DNA of 64,000 nt from a virus. The translations under genes were made by a program, and so were the position numbers. The notes beneath the pieces were generated by a model. It saw only the letters and a program-made list of their open reading frames with translations. It was not told the DNA's origin and ran no database searches. Of the stretch, positions 1,289 to 16,527 are shown one piece after another (the first letter of the stretch is position 1; the number at the start of each line of letters is the position of its first letter). Where the stretch lies: the IMG/VR virus record IMGVR_UViG_3300010354_000046, positions 32,001-96,000 of that record. One strand, given 5' to 3'.

Positions 1289-1561
1289 ATGATTAAGCAA
1301 TTTAACCCAGAGACAAAGACTTTCAAGTTGTTCAACGCATTGTACAATGGCGAAGCGGTTACTCCTGCTCAGGCAGAAAAGCGTTTTGGTATCAAGAATA
1401 TCAGCGCAGAAGTTAGCCGCATCCGTCAAAACGGTTATGCAGTTTATGCCAACAACCGTAAGGCAGGTAACGGTGTACAGGTTACTGAATATGTAATTGG
1501 CAAGCCAAGCCGCAAGCTGGTTGCCGCAGGTTACAAGGCAATGTCTTTGGGTCTTGTCTAA
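1289..1561 (+). CDS. winged helix-turn-helix DNA-binding protein
   Basis: LFNALYNGEAVTPAQAEKRFGIKNISAEVSRIRQNGY pattern; GAGG RBS; own promoter and terminator. Confidence 0.7.
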   Translation: MIKQFNPETKTFKLFNALYNGEAVTPAQAEKRFGIKNISAEVSRIRQNGYAVYANNRKAGNGVQVTEYVIGKPSRKLVAAGYKAMSLGLV

Positions 1562-5634: not shown

Positions 5635-5728
5635 ACGCAACGGTCGAGTGCGGCCAAAGACCCTTCGGTTGACTGGGTCTTTGTTTTGTGCTATAATATA
5701 TGCATAAGTTAAGGAATTGGAGCGAACA

Positions 5729-6055
5729 ATGGCCCGTAACCGCAAGATCCGTAGTGATTGCAATTATATCATCTATGAGGCAGTATCTGCTACGGGTGAA
5801 AACTACATTGGCTTGACACGTAAGTCCGAGTCCACTGTCCGCAAGTCGGTGCTAGAGCGTTGGCGTAAGCATCGGAGCCGTGCTCGTAACGAGAACCGCT
5901 TGTGGGCCCTGTATGTCTACTTGAAGACTGGCGGCTTGGACCTCGCTTGGGAACATCGCGTTCTAGAGATCGTACGTGGCCGCCGGGAAGCCTACGCCCG
6001 TGAACGTGAGATTGTCAAGGCTTTGGCACCATCGCTGAACGATCAGTACCTATAA
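5729..6055 (+). CDS. GIY-YIG nuclease family protein
   Basis: YIIY...NYIGLT...ERWRKH...ARERE motifs; GGAGCGAA RBS. Confidence 0.75.
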   Translation: MARNRKIRSDCNYIIYEAVSATGENYIGLTRKSESTVRKSVLERWRKHRSRARNENRLWALYVYLKTGGLDLAWEHRVLEIVRGRREAYAREREIVKALAPSLNDQYL

Positions 6056-6124
6056 CCTTTCGGTTGACATGGGTACTGATTCCTGCTATAATTAAGGCTA
6101 CAGTAAACGAACAAGGAGCGAAAC

Positions 6125-6850
6125 ATGTTCAAATTGCTTTCCACAGCTAATCCCAAAATCCAAAAGGGCACGGCTCACGGCTATCTGTCGTTCATCCTGC
6201 ATCTTGCACCTGCTGACTTGTCGGGCAAGGAAGTCTGCCCTAAGCGGACCAAGGGTTGCACGGACGCCTGCTTGAATACGGCAGGGCGTGGCGGTATGTT
6301 CAAACGTGGTGAAACTACCAACGTGATCCAAAAGGCACGTATTCGCAAGACCCGTTACTTCTTTGAGAACCGTGACGCTTTCATGGCAGATTTGGTTGAG
6401 GACATCATGCGGGCTGTGAACTTTGCACGCCGCAAGGGTTTGACGCCCGTGTTCCGCTTAAATGGTACATCGGACTTGAGCTGGGAGAAGTACCCAGTTC
6501 CCAACCATGGCAAGAACATCTTTGACGCTTTCAGTACACTACAGTTCTACGACTACACCAAGGTCCTGGGCCGTAAGACAAAGGACATCCCCAACTACCA
6601 CTTGACATTCAGTGCCGCAGAGGACAATCAAGAGGATGTGGTTAACGCTATGATCCAGGGCATGAATGTTGCAATGGTATTTGATCGGCTCCCAGAGACT
6701 TACATGGGCAAGCCCGTGTTCAATGCAGATGAAACGGATCTGCGCTTTTTGGATCCCAAAGGTGTTATACTTGGGCTCAAAGCCAAGGGTCGTGCTAAGA
6801 AGGACACTTCGGGCTTCGTGCGCCGTGTGATTGACATCAAGCCCGTTTGA
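6125..6850 (+). CDS. GP88-like phage protein with Cys triad
   Basis: VCPKRTKGCTDACLNTAGRG, FRLNGTSD, FYDYTK, DLRFLDP motifs. Confidence 0.65.
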   Translation: MFKLLSTANPKIQKGTAHGYLSFILHLAPADLSGKEVCPKRTKGCTDACLNTAGRGGMFKRGETTNVIQKARIRKTRYFFENRDAFMADLVEDIMRAVNFARRKGLTPVFRLNGTSDLSWEKYPVPNHGKNIFDAFSTLQFYDYTKVLGRKTKDIPNYHLTFSAAEDNQEDVVNAMIQGMNVAMVFDRLPETYMGKPVFNADETDLRFLDPKGVILGLKAKGRAKKDTSGFVRRVIDIKPV

Positions 6851-6883
6851 TGCTATACTATAGGCTACAGTAAAGGAGCGACA

Positions 6884-7165
6884 ATGAAACAAGACTATAC
6901 CATGTATATCTACAAGACAGATCGTCGTAAAAAGAGCGGCGAGCGTCTTGTCAGCACTACCGTTTGGCGCGATCGTGACCCGGACAGCATGCGTCGCGAG
7001 TGCAACGAACTCTATGATCTGTACCCTGCGACCAAAGGCTACCGGTTTGAGTACGTGCCTACAATGAAGACGGTCAAGAACTTGATGACAGGTCAAGACA
7101 TTCAGATCCCGCATGATACACCTAGATCGTGCGACCCTAGTTCAGAACTCTATTGGAGCATGTGA
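6884..7165 (+). CDS. early hypothetical protein
   Basis: Own promoter and GGAGCG RBS. Confidence 0.8.
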   Translation: MKQDYTMYIYKTDRRKKSGERLVSTTVWRDRDPDSMRRECNELYDLYPATKGYRFEYVPTMKTVKNLMTGQDIQIPHDTPRSCDPSSELYWSM

Positions 7166-7257
7166 TGTGGGAGTTTATTCGATTTTTACAGGTAACCGCC
7201 ATAGTGGCGCTGGGATGGATCATTGCTCTTGTAGCATATCTCCTTAGCCTGTTGTAA
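7165..7257 (+). CDS. 30 aa membrane peptide (not in ORF track)
   Basis: TGATG overlap; MWEFIRFLQVTAIVALGWIIALVAYLLSLL. Confidence 0.45.
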   Translation: MWEFIRFLQVTAIVALGWIIALVAYLLSLL

Positions 7258-7426
7258 TAACCTTTCGGTTGACAGGGTTATTGAAAGATGCTATACTATA
7301 GGCTAAGTTAAAGAAGCAAGGCGATCCTCAAATGCAAGGACCCACGCGAAAGCAAAAAGGGTCGTAGCCAAGGGATACGAAGCGAGTTTGGAGACTCGGC
7401 CTAAGCAAACCAAACTAGGAGCAATC

Positions 7427-7702
7427 ATGGACGTCAAGCAAATCAATCAAGCCATCATGTTCGGTACTTGGACTGATGTAGAGATCTCTAGCATGATCGA
7501 CGCTATCAAGTGGGCTCGCGCCAGTATGGCCAAACGTGTCAAGGCCAGCATGGCACTGGGCGATCCTGTCAAGTTCACTAGCCAAAAGACCGGCATGACC
7601 TATGTGGGCAAGGTAGAGAAGATCGCTGTCAAATACGTGACAGTCAACACGGGTGCAGGTCGCTGGAAGGTGCCCGCTAATATGCTACAGCCTGTGGCAT
7701 AA
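7427..7702 (+). CDS. early hypothetical protein (SH3-like C-terminus possible)
   Basis: AGGAGC RBS before ATG 7427. Confidence 0.75.
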   Translation: MDVKQINQAIMFGTWTDVEISSMIDAIKWARASMAKRVKASMALGDPVKFTSQKTGMTYVGKVEKIAVKYVTVNTGAGRWKVPANMLQPVA

Positions 7703-7786
7703 ACGCAACACAACCAAAGACCCTTTGGTTGACTGGGTCTTTGGTTTGTGCTATAATACGTGTATTGTAAAACAAAGGAGCGAACT

Positions 7787-8020
7787 ATGTTACACAATAC
7801 ACTAGCAAAAGCCCGTTTACAGTTTAATAAAAAACTGGAGATGTATAAACTAATCTGTGCATTTAATGTAACAGAGACAAACAAAAAGGGTCAATTAAAA
7901 TTCCCTGTAGAGAAAAAGTGCAATTATGTCTCGGGACATATAGAACTCTCAGAGCTGCCGCGTGTGCTAGACACAGCAAAAAAGGTCTTGCGTACAAACA
8001 ACATCGTAATCGTAGAATAA
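7787..8020 (+). CDS. early hypothetical protein
   Basis: Own promoter; GGAGCGAA RBS. Confidence 0.75.
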   Translation: MLHNTLAKARLQFNKKLEMYKLICAFNVTETNKKGQLKFPVEKKCNYVSGHIELSELPRVLDTAKKVLRTNNIVIVE

Positions 8021-8030
8021 GGAGCAAACA

Positions 8031-8378
8031 ATGCAAACAGTAAAATTTAACGTTGGGGGCGACGGCCTGTGGTCTAAGGTAAAAGGCTCAGTAGAGATTA
8101 CGGACATGCGTCTGGGCTATGTAGACGAATATAGGGACTTTGGAGAGCTGTGCGTGTACTTTAACACCGAACATTGGGACGTTAACGTTGACGGCTTAAT
8201 TTATACAGACAAGACCTTTAGGCAAGACTTGATACAGTTTTGCAAAGAGCATGGACTTGTGGTAGACCTGTGCTACAGCGAGCAGGGTATGCAGGGAGAC
8301 GACTATGTTAGCTTTGACGTGGGTAGGGACTTTATTGCCAGCTGGGACGCTAAGTTTGGAGTCCCCATTGCTGAATAA
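8031..8378 (+). CDS. early hypothetical protein
   Basis: AAGGAGC RBS; YSEQGMQGDDYVSFDV motif. Confidence 0.8.
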   Translation: MQTVKFNVGGDGLWSKVKGSVEITDMRLGYVDEYRDFGELCVYFNTEHWDVNVDGLIYTDKTFRQDLIQFCKEHGLVVDLCYSEQGMQGDDYVSFDVGRDFIASWDAKFGVPIAE

Positions 8379-8592
8379 TATTTTACAGTGGGCGGGCACA
8401 GCCTGCCTGCTTACCATGTACGTATTAATGTCGTTCTTCCCGAACCTACATCCTTGGAACATTGTCTGCGGAGTACTAGGCGGAGCATGCTATCTAGCAT
8501 GGACTATCCGTGTTGCAAATAAGCCACAGATGCTGGTCAATGCTGTAGCAATAACCATAGGCGCTGTAGGGTTATATCGGGCATGGGCTTGA
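8368..8592 (+). CDS. small membrane protein
   Basis: Three hydrophobic helices; TTG start after GGAG assumed. Confidence 0.6.
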   Translation: MLNNILQWAGTACLLTMYVLMSFFPNLHPWNIVCGVLGGACYLAWTIRVANKPQMLVNAVAITIGAVGLYRAWA

Positions 8593-8646
8593 CACAGCAG
8601 CCAAAAGGCGCTATAATTAAGGCATAGTAAACAAAAGGAGCGAGCG

Positions 8647-8997
8647 ATGAGTATTACTATTTCTGGCATTGATTTTGTCAAGCCTGGCGAACTGCTCTAC
8701 TCTAATCCCCGTGCTATTGACATTCTCGTGCGTGAGATTGTGTCTAGCATGGCTGAGAGTAGCATTGACCTGATCTGCGATGCTGGGCCCACTGAGTACC
8801 CAAACAAGGCTAGCATTGAGGACTGCCTCACTGGGTGCAGTGAAATGGGTGTGGACTTCGTTGAGGACATGATCAACGAACTGCGCGACAAATTGGTAGC
8901 ACGCCTGCAAGCCGTAAAGGTCAAGCCCGTTGTCAAGGAAATCCACTTCGATGAGAAGGGTTATTCCGATGTCGTGGTTGACATTGAGCTCGTTTGA
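8647..8997 (+). CDS. early hypothetical protein
   Basis: Own promoter; GGAGCG RBS. Confidence 0.8.
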   Translation: MSITISGIDFVKPGELLYSNPRAIDILVREIVSSMAESSIDLICDAGPTEYPNKASIEDCLTGCSEMGVDFVEDMINELRDKLVARLQAVKVKPVVKEIHFDEKGYSDVVVDIELV

Positions 8998-9035
8998 GCT
9001 TATAATAGAGTTATTGTTTAACAAAGGAGCGAACT

Positions 9036-9305
9036 ATGTCAAACTACCCTAACATGTCCTACTGCATGTGCAACAACACTCTCATGGCCCTGCGCCAAGT
9101 AATGGACGCCATGCAAGAGGAAGGTCCTATGTTCTTGCGTGAAATCAGCAAGGACGAGTACCGCTCTTACCGGGCCCTGTTTGACGCCTGCGAGAGCTTC
9201 CTCACTCTCAGCGAAGAGCTGGAGACTATTGTAGAGGAAGAAGACTACCACGATGGACAGCCCGACGAAGCTCAGGAGTGGCATGACTTCGACCCCGACT
9301 GCTAA
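9036..9305 (+). CDS. early acidic hypothetical protein
   Basis: Own promoter; GGAGCGAA RBS; C-terminal DGQPDEAQEWHDFDPDC. Confidence 0.8.
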   Translation: MSNYPNMSYCMCNNTLMALRQVMDAMQEEGPMFLREISKDEYRSYRALFDACESFLTLSEELETIVEEEDYHDGQPDEAQEWHDFDPDC

Positions 9306-9314
9306 GGAGTAGAC

Positions 9315-9545
9315 ATGATCACAGCAGACACACTCAAAGTCCTTACAGGGTTTGGGCCGCAAGGCCTTACTACATTGATTCGTCGTGCAGGCTACAAGGA
9401 GGACACCTTTACGGGTGCAAAGTTCCTGGGCTTGACTAACGGCGGACAGTTCTGCTACCTCTGCACCTACAAGGGCGAGTTCGAGGACACCTGTAAGGTT
9501 TTCCTTACAGTCAACAAGGACGGAACTGTAAGGGCAGAGTACTAA
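9315..9545 (+). CDS. early hypothetical protein
   Basis: AAGGAG RBS. Confidence 0.75.
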   Translation: MITADTLKVLTGFGPQGLTTLIRRAGYKEDTFTGAKFLGLTNGGQFCYLCTYKGEFEDTCKVFLTVNKDGTVRAEY

Positions 9546-9615
9546 TACCCGTTCGGTTGACACGGGTATTGATTGATGTTATACTATAGGCACAGTAACA
9601 AAACAGGAGCGTGAA

Positions 9616-10071
9616 ATGGCAACTCGAAGCACTATTGCATTGGAATTCGCAGACGGTACTGTCCAGCAGGTCTACTGCCACTGGGACGGCTACATTGATC
9701 ACAACGGCAAAATTCTGTTTGAGAACTATTCGAATCCCTTTATCCTGCGCGACTTGATTGACATGGGCGACATTAGCTCGCTGGGTCCCAAAGTCGGCAC
9801 CAAGCATCCGTTTAGCCCGCATGGCGATGGCGACAAGGCTGCATACGATGCGGCACAAGAGGCAGGCTACACTACATTCTACGGACGCGACAGAGGCGAA
9901 GACGGAGTGAGTGCTAAGAAGTTCAAAGACTTCGAGGACTACAAAGCCAATCACCAATATGAGGAATATGAGTATATTCTGCGTACCGACGGGCTGTGGT
10001 ATGTGTCGCAATACGGACGCCCCTACGAGCTGCTGTCAGCAGCTCTGCAACGTCAACTGGAGGAAGCATGA
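9616..10071 (+). CDS. early phage protein (YCHWDGY family)
   Basis: MATRSTIA...VYCHWDGY; own promoter and GGAGCG RBS. Confidence 0.8.
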   Translation: MATRSTIALEFADGTVQQVYCHWDGYIDHNGKILFENYSNPFILRDLIDMGDISSLGPKVGTKHPFSPHGDGDKAAYDAAQEAGYTTFYGRDRGEDGVSAKKFKDFEDYKANHQYEEYEYILRTDGLWYVSQYGRPYELLSAALQRQLEEA

Positions 10072-10283
10072 AAACAGTCCGAGTAGAGACACTTCTAGTC
10101 CAGGAACTCGAAGTTCCTGATGACTGGGAACGAGAGCACGTCTACGACTTCCTTGGAGAGTATCAGAGCTTCCGTACTGCGTTCCAAGGTGTCAGCAACG
10201 AAGATCAAACAGCTAGGATCGTAGACCTTATGGTCCTAGAGGAAACGGTAACTGAACTAGGTGAGGAGGCCTACGATGAGTAA
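10068..10283 (+). CDS. early acidic hypothetical protein
   Basis: GGAGG RBS, ATGA overlap. Confidence 0.7.
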   Translation: MKTVRVETLLVQELEVPDDWEREHVYDFLGEYQSFRTAFQGVSNEDQTARIVDLMVLEETVTELGEEAYDE

Positions 10284-10452
10284 AATGAGTGAACTGGCAT
10301 ACGACATTGAGCAACTATACATTGAAGGACTCAATGTAGGGCAGATTGCCCGTGAGCTGAATTGTCCCAAAGAGATTGTTCAAGACTGGCTGGCAGATCA
10401 AAGCCTGCGAGAGTTCGAGGATCTCGACCCGTACAACACCGTCAACAGCTAA
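10276..10452 (+). CDS. small helix-turn-helix protein
   Basis: LYIEGLNVGQIARELNCPKEIVQDWL; GAGGAGG RBS. Confidence 0.65.
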   Translation: MSKMSELAYDIEQLYIEGLNVGQIARELNCPKEIVQDWLADQSLREFEDLDPYNTVNS

Positions 10453-10614
10453 GTTTCGCGGGCCCTATCGCCTGGGTACTCTCTATAGGACCTGTACCCT
10501 GCAACCTGGGCCTGCCACCGCACTCGACCGTTGTATAGATGCAACAACCCTTCGATTGACTTGGGTATTGAAAGATGCTATACTATAGGCTAAGTTAAAC
10601 AAACAGGAGCAGAC

Positions 10615-10824
10615 ATGGAACTTCAACTTCAGAACCCAATGCAAGTTAAGATTGCAGATCTGCTGTGGGTAGCCCAAACCCAGCGCGAAGTCACAGCAAT
10701 CCTTAATACCTTTGGGCACGATGCTCGTGTAGTCTATGAGCTCATGGTTGCCGCTAGTTTTGACAACATCACTGATACCCAGGACGCTGATAGGGTTATT
10801 AAGCGTTTGGTTGACAAGCAGTGA
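10615..10824 (+). CDS. early hypothetical protein
   Basis: Own promoter; AGGAGC RBS; flanked by a 30-bp direct repeat. Confidence 0.75.
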   Translation: MELQLQNPMQVKIADLLWVAQTQREVTAILNTFGHDARVVYELMVAASFDNITDTQDADRVIKRLVDKQ

Positions 10825-10870
10825 TTTTGGTGCTATACTATAGGCTAAGTTAAACAAACAAGGAGCGCAA

Positions 10871-11128
10871 ATGAAAGAGTTGAAAGAGTTCGTGGATCGC
10901 GAGAACAAGTGGAGTGCTATCTTTGGTAGCCCTGCACTGAGCCTGCAGAGTGCGGCAGATCGCAAGAAGATCGCTAACAAGATTGATTCCTGCCTGAGCC
11001 CAGAGAACTTGACCTGCGATGGAGAGATCAGCCATGCAGAAGCCAATCGCAAGTTCCGCTTCCTCACTAAGGCCGCAGAGCAATTGATGAAGTTGGATCC
11101 CTCTGTTGAAATTCACGAATACTACTAA
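10871..11128 (+). CDS. early hypothetical protein
   Basis: Own promoter; GGAGCG RBS; LSPENLTCDGE motif. Confidence 0.8.
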   Translation: MKELKEFVDRENKWSAIFGSPALSLQSAADRKKIANKIDSCLSPENLTCDGEISHAEANRKFRFLTKAAEQLMKLDPSVEIHEYY

Positions 11129-11137
11129 GGAGCGAAC

Positions 11138-12227: not shown

Positions 12228-12581
12228 ATGGCTACTGATAAAACTTTTACCGTTGCAGGCGTTTCCAAGCACAAGGGCGAATACAAAGTTCGCTTCGCCA
12301 ATGATATCATGCGTATCAAGAATCTTGATAAGGCAGGTCACGAAGACATCCGTCTCTGTGAACTGGACAAGGCAATGACCAAGTTCGATGCCATCAAGGC
12401 TATTAGTACTATGGCTGAGTTCTCAGACGCGGCTGCACAGAGCTGCATCAGTGAGTATCTTGAGGACAAAGCTCCCAAAGCCAAAACAGCACCTGCGAAG
12501 GTCCCTGCGAAGGCTACACCTAAGGCCAAGGCTACTGCGCCCAAGGCCAAAGTTACCGAGGACGAAGACGCTCCTTTCTAA
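12228..12581 (+). CDS. hypothetical protein with Lys/Ala/Pro-rich histone-like tail
   Basis: KAPKAKTAPAKVPAKATPKAKATAPKAK; own promoter, GAGG RBS, terminator. Confidence 0.75.
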   Translation: MATDKTFTVAGVSKHKGEYKVRFANDIMRIKNLDKAGHEDIRLCELDKAMTKFDAIKAISTMAEFSDAAAQSCISEYLEDKAPKAKTAPAKVPAKATPKAKATAPKAKVTEDEDAPF

Positions 12582-12826: not shown

Positions 12827-12905
12827 GGGCCGTTAGCTCATGCTTGGTTAGAGCAGTGGACTCATAATCCATTGGTGCTAGGTTCGACTCCTAGACGGCC
12901 CACCA
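12827..12905 (+). tRNA. tRNA with CAT anticodon, most likely tRNA-Ile2 (lysidine type)
   Basis: GGGCCGT/ACGGCCC acceptor stem, GACTCATAATC anticodon arm, GGTTCGA T-loop, encoded CCA. Confidence 0.9.
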
Positions 12906-12908
12906 AAT

Positions 12909-12985
12909 CTGACTGTAGCTCAACTGGATAGAGCAACAGCCTTCTAAGCTGTAGGTCGGGGGTTCGAGTCCCTCCAGTCAGGCCA
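12909..12985 (+). tRNA. tRNA-Arg(TCT)
   Basis: CTGACTG/CAGTCAG acceptor stem, ACAGC-CTTCTAA-GCTGT anticodon arm, GGTTCGAG, encoded CCA. Confidence 0.93.
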
Positions 12986-13097
12986 TTCTGCCCCGCACTC
13001 GCCTGTTGTATAAACGCAACACCAATACCCATTCGGTTGACTTGGGTATTGAATTGTGCTATACTGTGTTCATAGTAAGCAATTAGGAGCGAACCAA

Positions 13098-13382
13098 ATG
13101 GCTAAACTGTTAATCCAAACCCAAGTTTATGAGAACTATGGCTACCGCTGGAAAGCCAAAGGAGGCGGCGACTATGTGGTTAAGAACTTTAAAGACTTCA
13201 ACCGTGTCACAGAGTTCGTCATGGCTCTCCGCAGCCAAGTCGAGCAGGACAACGAATTCTACCGCGAGCACATCATTGGTTGGGAAGTGGTTGCCGACGA
13301 CTACCTTACAGAGTTCGAGCGCGATCAGCTGGAGTACGAGGGCCAGATCCGCTACCCGGCCAACGAGCTGGTTGTAGAATAA
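13098..13382 (+). CDS. early hypothetical protein
   Basis: Own promoter; GGAGCGAA RBS; TQVYENY...WKAKGG. Confidence 0.8.
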   Translation: MAKLLIQTQVYENYGYRWKAKGGGDYVVKNFKDFNRVTEFVMALRSQVEQDNEFYREHIIGWEVVADDYLTEFERDQLEYEGQIRYPANELVVE

Positions 13383-13389
13383 GGAGTAC

Positions 13390-13494
13390 ATGATGCTTGA
13401 AATTCTTATTGCTGTATTGGTTATTGTCATCATTGGCGTGAATATTGCAACGACTGTATCGACTAGGTTTCGCCGGTGGCTCTATAGCAAATAA
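13390..13494 (+). CDS. 34 aa membrane peptide (not in ORF track)
   Basis: AAGGAG RBS; MMLEILIAVLVIVIIGV... Confidence 0.5.
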   Translation: MMLEILIAVLVIVIIGVNIATTVSTRFRRWLYSK

Positions 13495-13563
13495 CCTTTC
13501 GGTTGACAGGGTTACCAAAAGACGCTATAATTAAGGCTACAGTAAACAAACAAGGAGCGCAAA

Positions 13564-13803
13564 ATGGGTATGTGGACTACAGACAACCAAGATACAATGA
13601 GCCTGGTGCTCAAGGCATTCAGCGAAGCCGCTCGTGAAAACTATGGTGGTCATGCTTTTGAAGCAGGCTATCTACAGAGTGTGATAGTTAGCCTTGTGCC
13701 ACTCTTGCCCAAGCGGGCTCAGAAGGTCCTGATAGACGACATGGTTCGTGCCGCTAAGAAGCAAGAGCAAGAAGTCAGCAACAAGCAAAAGGAGACTGTA
13801 TGA
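13564..13803 (+). CDS. early hypothetical protein
   Basis: Own promoter; GGAGCG RBS. Confidence 0.75.
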   Translation: MGMWTTDNQDTMSLVLKAFSEAARENYGGHAFEAGYLQSVIVSLVPLLPKRAQKVLIDDMVRAAKKQEQEVSNKQKETV

Positions 13804-14024
13804 TTAGAGAGCATATTCAGATTGATACCCGCCACGGTGGGCCTTACGATCGTGGATCGGCAGACAGCTACTACCGTCGTGGTCGTAACCCACACTTCTT
13901 CCGTGGTGACAGCTATCAATCCGAGCGTGTCACCTACAAGGACATGACTCCTGACGAGGTTGTGGCCTACAATGCAGGCTACGATGACAACGAAGAATTT
14001 GGTGACTACAAGGAGTGGTTGTGA
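13800..14024 (+). CDS. early hypothetical protein
   Basis: AAGGAG RBS; HGGPYDRGSADSYY motif. Confidence 0.75.
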   Translation: MIREHIQIDTRHGGPYDRGSADSYYRRGRNPHFFRGDSYQSERVTYKDMTPDEVVAYNAGYDDNEEFGDYKEWL

Positions 14025-14194
14025 TTTATCCCGAAGACATGACAGCTGAAGACATCATGGAGTTCGAGTACGAATGGGAACGCTACTGCGATTTGGCAGA
14101 TCCCTACAGCCTAGCCAGCATCAATGCTGAGCTTCAATGTGTTGCAGAAACACAACGCCAAAAGACCCTAGAGGTTGACGGGTCTTTCATTTGA
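14021..14194 (+). CDS. 57 aa acidic hypothetical protein (not in ORF track)
   Basis: AAGGAG RBS, GTGA overlap, reads through the next promoter cassette to TGA 14194. Confidence 0.55.
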   Translation: MIYPEDMTAEDIMEFEYEWERYCDLADPYSLASINAELQCVAETQRQKTLEVDGSFI

Positions 14195-14236
14195 GTATAT
14201 AATACATACATATTAACACAACAGGGAGCGACCCAA

Positions 14237-14620
14237 ATGACTAAAGTAAACTATGACAAGTTCGCCAGCTTTGACCTGAACGAAGCCTGTGACCATTTTG
14301 ACAGCATGGACCAGCGGGCCTGGAAGAAGATTGGCAAGTTCATCGTTGCAGACGGTCAAGAGTACGTGGATGTCATGGAGAACCACTTTGACTTTGAAGA
14401 CACCGCAGAAGGCGAATACGCGGCCTTTGACGCAGGTGTCCGTTATGCACTAACTAAGATGAACACGGCCCTGGAAGCCGCAGGTATAGACGTACAGATC
14501 TGCGAAGTGGACCTTGTGGAGAGCATGGGCTTTATTATGGTCCGTTGCGATGATGAGCCCGAGGATTTTGTAAAACGAGCCCTAAAAAAGCCTGTCATGA
14601 TGGTTGACAGCTGGGTCTAA
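14237..14620 (+). CDS. early acidic hypothetical protein
   Basis: Own promoter; GGGAGCG RBS. Confidence 0.8.
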   Translation: MTKVNYDKFASFDLNEACDHFDSMDQRAWKKIGKFIVADGQEYVDVMENHFDFEDTAEGEYAAFDAGVRYALTKMNTALEAAGIDVQICEVDLVESMGFIMVRCDDEPEDFVKRALKKPVMMVDSWV

Positions 14621-14664
14621 AGACTGTATAATAAACACTTCAACAACGCAAACAGGAGCGAAAC

Positions 14665-15012
14665 ATGTCTGCAAACTACACTCAAGAGCAGGTCAACGAA
14701 ATCGTACGTGAAGCACAAGAGGCAGCTCGTAAGGCTGCTCTGGACTTTTTCCAAACCCGTTTGGGCGGTCGTGACCAGTACGCCTGTGGCTTTGCCTGGG
14801 TCAACATCTACCGGGTCAAAGGCAACACCAAACTGGGCAAGATGCTCAAAGCCGCTGGTGTGCGTCAAGACTACACCAAAGCATTTCAAATTTGGAATCC
14901 CAGTGGCATGCCCGTGCAGAACGTAGACACTCTGGAAGCGGGTGCAGAAGCCGCCGCAAATGTCTTTCAAAAGTATGGCTTCGAAGCTTACGCAGGTAGC
15001 CGATTGGATTGA
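14665..15012 (+). CDS. early hypothetical protein (CGFAWV family)
   Basis: Own promoter; GGAGCGAA RBS. Confidence 0.8.
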   Translation: MSANYTQEQVNEIVREAQEAARKAALDFFQTRLGGRDQYACGFAWVNIYRVKGNTKLGKMLKAAGVRQDYTKAFQIWNPSGMPVQNVDTLEAGAEAAANVFQKYGFEAYAGSRLD

Positions 15013-15068
15013 CAAAAGGGCCGCAAGGCCTTATAATAGATACTTCAACAAACAGTAAGGAGCGACAA

Positions 15069-15965
15069 ATGGGTAGACCCCTAGGCAGTAAGAACAAGGT
15101 TATGACACTGGCAGCACTCAAGCAGATTGAGTCCGACACCAAGAGCCTTGTACAGGATCCAGTTGAGAAAGACCTCAGCAAGGAAACAGACGAGCAGATT
15201 ATGGAGCGTCTGGGACAACGTTTTGAGATCCTGGAAGACATGACTCGTGCAGTCAAGAAGGGCGATGTACGTGCTATGATTGTATCGGGCCCTCCGGGTG
15301 TGGGCAAGAGCTTTGGCGTGGAGAAAGTACTAAGCAAGCACGATGTGTTCGCCGATGTTGCTGACGACAAGAAGCTGAAGAAGTACGAGATTGTCAAGGG
15401 CGCAATGAGTGCCATTGGCTTGTACTCAAAGCTCTATGAGTTCTCGGACAAGAAGTCAATCCTTGTGTTTGACGACTGTGACAGCGTATTGCTGGACGAC
15501 TTGAGCTTGAACATTCTCAAGGCAGCTCTGGACAGCAGTAAGAAGCGTACCATCCATTGGAACACTGACAGCAGGCTCCTGCGCTCAGAAGGTGTGCCCA
15601 ACAGCTTTGAGTTCAAGGGCGGTGCTATCTTTATTACCAATATCAAGTTCGACAACGTGCGCTCAAAGAAGCTGCGCGATCACTTGGAAGCATTGGAAAG
15701 CCGTTGCCACTACTTGGACTTGACTATTGACACAGAGCGTGAGAAGCTTCTACGCATCCGTCAGGTTGTACGTGATGCAGGCATGCTGGATGACTACGAG
15801 CTTAGTGATACAGCTAAGGCTGAAGTGGTAGACTTCATTGCAGACAATAGTAAGCGTATGCGTGAGCTGAGCTTGCGTATGGTGCTTAAGGTAGCAGACA
15901 TACGCCGTAGCATGCCCAACAACTGGCGTGCTGTAGTAGAGGTTACCTGTATGCGTAACCGTTAA
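15069..15965 (+). CDS. AAA+ family ATPase
   Basis: Walker A GPPGVGKS, Walker B LVFDDCD, ALESRC arginine finger; start set at ATG 15069 from promoter and RBS. Confidence 0.85.
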   Translation: MGRPLGSKNKVMTLAALKQIESDTKSLVQDPVEKDLSKETDEQIMERLGQRFEILEDMTRAVKKGDVRAMIVSGPPGVGKSFGVEKVLSKHDVFADVADDKKLKKYEIVKGAMSAIGLYSKLYEFSDKKSILVFDDCDSVLLDDLSLNILKAALDSSKKRTIHWNTDSRLLRSEGVPNSFEFKGGAIFITNIKFDNVRSKKLRDHLEALESRCHYLDLTIDTEREKLLRIRQVVRDAGMLDDYELSDTAKAEVVDFIADNSKRMRELSLRMVLKVADIRRSMPNNWRAVVEVTCMRNR

Positions 15966-16101
15966 GAGTAAGCGGCCCGAGAGCCGCACTGGACCAGCCA
16001 ACGATTCGCTCCCGGTAACTGGTCCCCAAAAGGTCCCATAAGTCCGATTCGCTCCCGGCAAGACCTTTTTCAAATCCCCGACTGGTTCGGGGATTTTTTT
16101 T
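15966..16101 (+). ncRNA. candidate structured anti-RBS small RNA (3' UTR of the AAA+ gene)
   Basis: Four consecutive hairpins; two present the loop ATTCGCTCC, complementary to the GGAGCGAA early RBS. Confidence 0.6.
16072..16101 (+). terminator. intrinsic terminator closing the early island
   Basis: AAATCCCCGA-ctggt-TCGGGGATTT with T8. Confidence 0.9.
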
Positions 16102-16184
16102 GATTGATGTGGAGGGGGGCCGGCATGTATTTTTATAAATTGTTGTTTTTACGCAACAGCGCATGCAAAATTCACCCATAGGTG

Positions 16185-16527
16185 TAAAATCACCACCCCG
16201 AATCTATAAGTACTTTTATTTTAAATTTTTCGCAGCCACGTTTTTTTACCCTGTAGACCCTCGCCGCATATATACAGTATGAATGAACTGTATACGCAAA
16301 CTGAACAGATCCGTGGACGCTGGTATCGCTATGATCCGGACCGTGATATATGGTATCCCATAGACAATCAGGACTCAGCCGTAAGTGCTTGGGCATGGGT
16401 CATTGTTGTGGCATTTTTAGCGGCTCTAGCTTACTATGCTGAATACTTACGCTAAAACTGACCCCACCAGAACTCTAAGTACTTCTCCCAAATTTTTTGC
16501 GTACAGTTTTTTTTGGTGCTAGGACCC
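16185..16527 (+). repeat. degenerate 75-bp direct repeat pair
   Basis: 16185-16260 and 16453-16527 share TAAAA..CCAC..GAA..TAAGTACTT..AAATTTTT..GTTTTTTT..GACCC. Confidence 0.65.
16279..16455 (+). CDS. 58 aa membrane-anchored hypothetical protein (not in ORF track)
   Basis: MNELYTQ...WYRYDPDRDIWY...WVIVVAFLAALAYY. Confidence 0.55.
   Translation: MNELYTQTEQIRGRWYRYDPDRDIWYPIDNQDSAVSAWAWVIVVAFLAALAYYAEYLR

What the first reader, a model, noticed from the sequence alone, without database searches (positions are those of the whole stretch)
15966..16101. Candidate phage sRNA with twin anti-RBS loops that could silence the whole early regulon
Seen in sequence: between the AAA+ stop codon and the terminator lie four consecutive hairpins. 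They are GCGGC/GCCGC (15972-15987), GGACCAG/CTGGTCC (15991-16025), AAAAGGTC/GACCTTTT (16028-16069) and the terminator (16072-16101). Hairpins 2 and 3 have unrelated outer stems but carry an identical 14-mer, CGATTCGCTCCCGG (16002-16015, 16045-16058), placing AUUCGCUCC in the apical loop. That loop is the reverse complement of GGAGCGAA(U). Fourteen early-island genes use GGAGCG as their RBS (5719, 6115, 6875, 7777, 8637, 9026, 9606, 10862, 11129, 13086, 13554, 14225, 14655, 15059). Eleven of these read GGAGCGA and seven read GGAGCGAA. Replication and late genes I inspected mostly use GGAGA or GAGG. The CG extension adds nothing to pairing with the standard 16S tail (GGAGGU). Inference: early mRNAs carry a shared RBS address, and an RNA made at the end of the last early transcript pairs with all of them. 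That includes its own AAA+ cistron, which would make it a self-timing shut-off of early translation. C-rich loop anti-SD pairing is established for bacterial sRNAs such as Staphylococcus RNAIII and RsaE. I do not know of a phage regulon-wide version.
Basis: partly seen in the sequence, partly recalled or inferred. Interest (0 to 1): 0.92.

Follow-up and report, generated by a model that had tools for sequence, protein, structure and literature searches.

The report
Phage RNA loops address early genes
An uncultured jumbo phage ends its early gene block with RNA hairpins whose open loops are the exact complement of a private tag on the ribosome-binding sites of 14 early genes; related phages use six other tag/loop pairs, each matched, so the two almost certainly base-pair and probably switch early protein synthesis down, though no transcript or effect has been measured.

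Summary
Observation confirmed: both loops (AUUCGCUCC), all 14 GGAGCG sites, counts 11 and 7. None of 159 other gene starts in the genome carries GGAGCG. The element is a conserved RNA structure: 64 of 80 relatives carry it behind the same NrdC.10-like AAA+ gene, with invariant loop and covarying stems. Loop and leader change together: six further pairs were found (e.g. UGCCCUC/GAGGGCA, UAGUGUC/ACACUA, CCUCGCU/AGCGAGG, ACCUCUCU/AGAGAGGU), one confirmed by a blind test. This excludes chance and an unusual host 16S tail. Corrections: it has no promoter of its own (it is an mRNA 3' end; a free sRNA is unproven); it is not tied to AAA+ or to the last gene, since relatives put it behind a winged-helix gene and a third gene whose own leaders lack the tag; 26 tagged leaders lie downstream of any loop, so pairing must also occur in trans. 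Repression and timing are inferred, not shown; no expression data could be obtained. No Rfam family or paper matches. It works like cuckoo/RsaE loops and P1 C4, but is a member of none. The scan noted this system before on other genomes.

The parts
15009..15037 (+). Perfect sigma70-type promoter of the AAA+ gene; the only + strand promoter feeding the loops directly
   Evidence: 12/12 match
15059..15065 (+). Address GGAGCGA in the AAA+ gene's own leader (overlaps the Shine-Dalgarno)
   Evidence: tagged in 33 of 36 type-A clusters whose AAA+ mRNA carries loops
15069..15965 (+). AAA+ ATPase, T4 NrdC.10-like (phrog_1250), function unknown; carrier of the loops in this lineage
15972..15987 (+). 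Hairpin 1, spacer hairpin, not conserved in sequence
15991..16025 (+). Hairpin 2: 7-bp covarying lower stem, internal loop, 2-bp cap, 9-nt seed loop at 16004-16012
16028..16069 (+). Hairpin 3: second copy of the seed loop at 16047-16055; in most relatives this hairpin is the terminator itself
16072..16104 (+). Intrinsic terminator, the only strong one in the 5.4-16.1 kb island
5719..11136 (+). Nine tagged leaders upstream of the tRNA pair: 5719, 6115, 6875, 7777, 8637, 9026, 9606, 10862, 11129
13086..14662 (+). Four tagged leaders downstream of the tRNA pair: 13086, 13554, 14225, 14655
12827..12985 (+). tRNA-Met and tRNA-Arg; their processing would cut read-through transcripts and part the nine upstream targets from the loops (inference)
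1289..1561 (+). Winged-helix gene (HTH_39-like): untagged leader, no loop here; main loop carrier in other lineages
12228..12581 (+). 'MAT' gene (unknown fold, acidic C-terminal tail): untagged leader, no loop here; third loop carrier in other lineages

Best explanation
The phage tags the ribosome-binding sites of its dispensable-looking early cassette genes with a private 7-8 nt address that extends a normal 4-nt Shine-Dalgarno core. The 3' ends of one to three conserved early mRNAs (here AAA+) display the complement in open hairpin loops. As early RNA accumulates, the loops (on full-length mRNA or on a stable 3' fragment) pair with the tagged leaders, cover the Shine-Dalgarno and out-compete the 16S tail, so initiation on these genes falls and the messages probably decay. 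Untagged early genes and all replication and late genes escape. This gives a concentration-dependent negative feedback that turns a whole gene class down, the job RegB does by cleavage in T4. SHOWN: sequence, structure conservation, matched changes of loop and leader, strand and spacing rules, targets that can only be reached in trans. INFERRED: actual pairing in the cell (about 0.9), repression rather than activation, role in the early-to-later switch, and the form of the RNA.
For: Loop behind AAA+ in 64/80 relatives. Lower stem: 7/7 pairs with two-sided changes, 96% cells paired, 0/500 shuffles, slid controls 20-39%; cap pairs held in 180, 175 and 161 of 186 contexts with five pair types. 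Seeds predicted unpaired in 74% (A) and 67% (B) of cases against 6% of background windows; 173 antisense and 0 sense copies in 104 carrier 3' ends; 461 sense and 2 antisense copies behind promoters. Loop-class by leader-class matrix is diagonal: GGAGCG 402/702 in A and 0/147 in B; GAGGGC 96/147 in B and 0/702 in A. Blind test of class C: three loci with ACACU-rich leaders were predicted to hold the UAGUGUC loop and did; 64 contigs fetched by that loop alone have ACACU in 280/487 leaders against 180/1882. Address is spaced to the start codon (sd 1.3 nt) more tightly than to the promoter (sd 2.6; B 1.8 vs 5.2). Loop-leader duplex -10 to -13 kcal/mol against about -7.5 for the 16S tail; non-cognate pairs -5 to -6. 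99/105 winged-helix and 55 MAT 3' ends carry the loop and none has the tag in its own leader; 26 tagged leaders in 15 clusters lie downstream of the last seed. Precedent: 7-nt UCCCCUG and UCCC motifs block initiation (PMC3868564, PMC2790875).
Against: Pairing is only 6-8 bp and a small loop on a stem may pair less well than the free-strand energies suggest. Pooled leader counts are not independent: the tree shows about six independent changes, and B2 and F rest on one locus each. Some loci have tagged leaders with no loop in the fetched DNA (mostly truncated). The island has no internal terminators, so in this genome pairing could be largely in cis. The record is about 38% complete.
Confidence: 0.7

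Rival explanations
1. Same pairing and repression, but its main job is exclusion of a second, related phage or holding a quiet carrier state: loops accumulated by the resident phage silence the first mRNAs of a newcomer with the same address, and address switches create immunity groups as with P1/P7 C4.
For: Address switches between lineages; class C has a two-part seed collinear with a two-part target, like C4 loops a' and b' (PMC5320573). Not exclusive with the best explanation.
Against: Address A is nearly invariant over 67 clusters spanning 65-100% AAA+ identity, little diversity for an arms race between phages; carriers have ordinary early promoters; no integrase or repressor link was looked for or seen.
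Confidence: 0.1
2. The pairing is positive or protective: the common 3' end folds back on the 5' leader (closed loop) to shield the 5' end or recycle ribosomes, or a seed next to the stop codon hands terminating ribosomes to a tagged leader.
For: No terminators inside the island, so many transcripts may share the loop-bearing 3' end; 425 tagged leaders lie upstream of a loop against 79 downstream; a seed copy lies within 12 nt of the stop codon in 12/15 B carriers and several others; 5'-3' kissing stimulates translation in some RNA viruses (discussed in PMC3868564).
Against: The duplex covers the Shine-Dalgarno itself and is stronger than the 16S pairing; targets downstream of all seeds cannot form a closed loop; the most conserved early genes avoid the tag; the minimum-energy fold of the AAA+ mRNA does not join leader and loops.
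Confidence: 0.1
3. A protein reads the motif: either a dsDNA operator 10-26 nt behind each early promoter with inverted spare sites at gene ends, or an RNA-binding factor, so that loop and leader covary without pairing.
For: Carriers include a winged-helix protein and an AAA+ ATPase; the site lies at a typical operator distance from the promoter; G-U tolerant variants are rare in class A (GGAGUGA 2 vs GGAGCGA 396).
Against: Strict strand rule (173:0 and 461:2), placement in apical loops of covarying stems, spacing tied to the start codon, and wholly different sequences (ACACUA, AGAGAGGU) gained with the same winged-helix and AAA+ families. One RNA-binding protein would not bind a sequence and its complement.
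Confidence: 0.06
4. The host 16S tail is unusual and itself pairs with GGAGCG, or the shared leader is only a by-product of cassette duplication and the match to the loop is chance.
For: Host unknown (MAG hits are scattered mis-binned contigs); early cassettes share promoter and leader blocks.
Against: 0/159 non-island starts use GGAGCG while they use GGAG, AGGA and GAGG; seven different addresses each match their own loop; class C address lies upstream of the Shine-Dalgarno.
Confidence: 0.02

Closest known systems
Cuckoo / alpha-r14 / CcsR (RSs0680) sRNAs of Alphaproteobacteria (PMC4615179; PMC8034643)
   Same: [quoted passage not shown]
   Different: Cuckoo loop is CCUCCUCCC, a generic anti-SD, in bacterial chromosomes; here the loop is lineage-specific, matches a private tag on the element's own genome, and changes with it. 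No Rfam match.
S. aureus RsaE and other UCCC-loop RNAs (PMC2790875); icaR 3'UTR-5'UTR pairing (PMC3868564)
   Same: Unpaired C-rich seeds that pair with Shine-Dalgarno regions and block initiation; icaR shows that a 7-nt 3'UTR motif is enough.
   Different: Host metabolism regulators or single-gene autoregulation; targets carry no dedicated barcode; no sequence relationship.
C4 antisense RNA of phages P1/P7 (and P4 CI, P22 sar) (PMC5320573; PMC12197685)
   Same: Phage RNA cut from a longer transcript, loops pair with short sites, one covering the RBS and one upstream; specificity changes by a few matched bases. Class C here has the same two-part geometry.
   Different: C4 is a three-stem cloverleaf processed by RNase P that controls one antirepressor operon in temperate phages; here simple hairpins at mRNA 3' ends address 10-20 separately promoted genes of large myoviruses. 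No C4 match in Rfam.
T4 RegB endoribonuclease and RegA repressor (PMC3014915, PMC1702504)
   Same: Same apparent job: inactivate many early mRNAs at their Shine-Dalgarno, including their own message; RegB reads GGAG within an 11-nt consensus.
   Different: Protein-based recognition; here recognition is by base pairing. No RegB or RegA match in the (incomplete) record, with an uninformative control.

Membership tests
Cuckoo / alpha-r14 / CcsR | Loop motif CCUCCUCCC | tested here: not met
   Loops read AUUCGCUCC (A) or other lineage-specific seeds; only the single class F locus has a CU-repeat loop
Cuckoo / alpha-r14 / CcsR | 2-4 adjacent hairpins, variable stems, repeated identical loop | tested here: met
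   1-3 loops per carrier, mostly 2; covarying stems
Cuckoo / alpha-r14 / CcsR | Match to the Rfam models | tested here: not met
   No hit at gathering score; no such family among weak hits
C4 antisense RNA (P1/P7) | Three-stem structure, RNase P processing, Rfam C4 model | tested here: not met
   No Rfam hit; architecture is tandem hairpins plus terminator
C4 antisense RNA (P1/P7) | Two loops pairing with two nearby sites, one at the RBS | tested here: inconclusive
   Geometry present in class C relatives only; in this window both loops are identical
3'UTR-derived base-pairing sRNAs (general kind) | Encoded between a stop codon and an intrinsic terminator without need of its own gene | tested here: met
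3'UTR-derived base-pairing sRNAs (general kind) | Conserved unpaired seed complementary to targets in trans | tested here: met
   (by sequence only)
3'UTR-derived base-pairing sRNAs (general kind) | Discrete short RNA released by processing or an internal promoter | not testable with these tools
3'UTR-derived base-pairing sRNAs (general kind) | Measured regulation of targets; chaperone (Hfq/ProQ) use | not testable with these tools
   No Hfq in the partial phage record; host unknown
T4 NrdC.10-like AAA+ (carrier protein) | Full-length similarity to NrdC.10 / phrog_1250 with Walker A and B | tested here: met
   phrog_1250 E 1e-84; 37-38% to annotated nrdC.10; invariant GPPGVGKS and VFDDCD

The most novel reading that the evidence does not exclude
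A widespread group of aquatic jumbo phages runs a programmable RNA address system: any gene is put under control by writing a 6-8 nt barcode into its leader, any mRNA becomes a regulator by carrying the complementary loop at its 3' end, and barcodes are re-coded or doubled between lineages. Early mRNAs would regulate one another directly, as an RNA-only counterpart of RegB and possibly as immunity groups among lytic phages.
Probability: 0.55. Interest if true: 0.9.

Novelty: new variant of a known kind. Interest (0 to 1): 0.8.

Why it matters
How lytic phages switch off early genes is only partly understood even in T4, and known phage sRNAs act on single phage operons or on host genes. This is a class-wide, self-encoded RNA control with natural compensatory mutants already supplied by evolution, so pairing and sign of effect can be tested directly in E. 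coli reporters without the host. It is common: hundreds of freshwater and marine contigs carry it. The near-orthogonal loop/leader pairs (cognate about -13, non-cognate about -5.5 kcal/mol) are also ready-made parts for multi-gene translational control.

Tried and rejected
Rfam: only two tRNAs at gathering score; weak hits far below thresholds. Cultured relatives: AAA+ loci of Pseudomonas phage Cassandra (PA5oct group), CC31, DLP_6 and RcRudolph show no seed-leader pair in the fetched stretches; a weak hit in Burkholderia phage FLC6 is chance. Host: genome hits are mis-binned contigs in unrelated MAGs. A naive test (top leader 6-mer looked up in own 3' ends) gave only 19/67 against 6% chance, because the top word AGGAGC includes the A that serves 16S pairing; the matrix test replaces it. 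A supposed address for the AAGUUACC motif after the stop codon in one clade found no matching leaders. GGACAC as target of the class C loop was wrong (2/121); ACACUA is the target. G-U wobble test was uninformative. AAA+ model gives only generic AAA+ matches; MAT protein has no clear fold match (best Z 3.4). RegB/RegA searches negative but uninformative. Class C includes one chance coding match (L517). Literature searches found no description of the motif.

Full report
Setting. The window lies in a 141.6-kb viral record estimated 38% complete, a large myovirus whose closest isolates are the PA5oct group and Atu_ph07 (tail sheath 36-46%). From 5.4 to 16.1 kb the + strand holds 17 near-perfect sigma70-type promoters, each heading small unknown genes, and only one strong terminator, at 16072. 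The last gene is an AAA+ ATPase of the T4 NrdC.10 family. The host is unknown.

Observation. GGAGCG marks 14 of 25 island starts and none of 159 other starts in the record; the 9-nt loop ranks these 14 within the top 15 of 184 starts, at -10 to -13 kcal/mol against about -7.5 for a standard 16S tail. The loop sequence occurs in this orientation only at the two hairpins and once in a coding region. There is no promoter between the AAA+ promoter and the terminator, so the element is an mRNA 3' end.

It is a conserved RNA structure. 64 of 80 AAA+ relatives carry one to three copies of the loop before or inside the terminator hairpin, and their promoter leaders read GGAGCG(A). The lower stem changes freely but stays paired: 7 of 7 pairs show two-sided changes, 96% of cells pair, no shuffle reaches this, and slid controls give 20-39%. 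The cap under the loop also covaries. Seeds are predicted open in about 70% of cases against 6% of background windows. In carrier 3' ends there are 173 antisense and no sense copies; behind promoters 461 sense and 2 antisense. The tag is spaced to the start codon more tightly than to the promoter.

Loop and leader change together. A mostly marine clade has the loop UGCCCUC and leaders GAGGGCA (B). One locus within it shifts to GCCCUU and AAGGGC (B2). Another clade extends the loop to CCUCGCUCC and gains leaders AGCGAGG (D). More distant phages pair ACCUCUCU with AGAGAGGU (E) and a CU-repeat loop with GAGGAGAGA (F, two leaders). Class C adds a second loop, UAGUGUC, matched by ACACUA just upstream of a relaxed GGAGC; the two seeds are collinear and antiparallel to the two sites, as in C4. 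C was tested blind: three loci with ACACU-rich leaders proved to hold the loop behind other genes, and 64 contigs fetched by the loop alone have ACACU in 280/487 leaders against 180/1882. The class-by-class matrix is diagonal. These pooled counts share ancestry; the tree shows about six independent changes, all concordant. Distant clades without a loop lack the tags. E is weaker evidence because its tag resembles an ordinary Shine-Dalgarno.

It is a movable module that must act in trans at least in part. A search for the loop alone found it behind two more conserved early genes, a winged-helix protein and an unknown 'MAT' protein. 99 of 105 winged-helix 3' ends and 55 MAT 3' ends carry it, and none of these genes has the tag in its own leader. 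In this genome both genes are present, untagged and loop-free. In 15 relatives, 26 tagged leaders lie downstream of the last seed with at least 2.5 kb of seed-free sequence after them. In the window itself, read-through could also place leader and loops on one molecule, although the tRNA pair at 12827-12985 would be cut out and separate nine of the targets (inference).

Mechanism. Most likely the loops pair with tagged leaders, cover the Shine-Dalgarno and block initiation once early RNA has accumulated, turning a gene class down while sparing core early, replication and late genes (0.7). Pairing itself I put at about 0.9. Repression follows from geometry, energies and precedent: a 7-nt 3'UTR motif blocks icaR initiation (PMC3868564) and unpaired UCCC motifs do so for RsaE (PMC2790875). 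The purpose may be the early-to-later switch that RegB serves in T4 (PMC3014915), or exclusion of related phages as with C4 (PMC5320573). A protective or activating closed loop and a protein-read operator remain possible but fit the strand, loop and spacing rules worse. An unusual host 16S tail and chance are excluded.

Comparison and novelty. No Rfam family matches and no paper in the searchable library describes it. In build it resembles cuckoo/CcsR RNAs (PMC4615179, PMC8034643) but fails their loop motif; in logic it resembles C4 but fails its structure. What is new is a private, re-codable address on a dozen or more separately promoted genes of a large phage, read by loops on interchangeable mRNA 3' ends. 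I file it as a new variant of base-pairing anti-RBS regulation. Earlier notes of this scan describe the same system on other genomes; my reading was recorded before seeing them, and they supplied the cuckoo, icaR and RsaE papers, which I read. Limits: no transcript, no functional test, no cultured member.

Noticed in passing
window 12228-12581 +: Conserved early 'MAT' protein ends in an acidic tail (EDAPF) like the C-terminal tail of single-strand binding proteins; its last codons also spell a partial seed (CGCUCC, 12569-12574). Model has no clear fold match.
   Followed up: partly
window 1289-1561 +; L167, L169, L175 and others: Winged-helix gene (HTH_39-like; nearest isolate match Pelagibacter phage HTVC008M, 40%). 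In relatives its leader has a conserved short palindrome (GCTG..CAGC) just after the start of transcription, a possible auto-operator.
   Followed up: no
L117:7690-7710, L473, L044, L234, L541, L569: The class C loop also sits behind further unrelated early genes, some with tagged leaders, so the module moves between carriers more widely than the three main ones.
   Followed up: partly
L128, L131, L135-L142, L148, L149, L156, directly after the AAA+ stop: A clade without early island keeps an invariant AAGUUACC right after the AAA+ stop codon; no matching leader was found.
   Followed up: partly
L059, L060, L078, L050 AAA+ leaders: The AAA+ leader keeps AGAGCGAA after losing the first G of the Shine-Dalgarno, i.e. 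the address is kept where the SD is weakened.
   Followed up: no
window 16110-16260 and 16470-16520; same position in many relatives: Downstream of the terminator a conserved non-coding block (G-run, GTTG-N8-CAAC palindrome, A/T tracts) marks the convergence of early and replication genes; possibly an origin or island boundary.
   Followed up: no
window 12827-12985 +: tRNA-Met(CAT) and tRNA-Arg(TCT) lie inside the early island.
   Followed up: partly
G000 minus-strand starts at window-relative 91710, 95556 and window 44464: A few late-region genes have partial matches to the loop (GGAGAGCGAA, GGAGCA); too weak to call targets.
   Followed up: no
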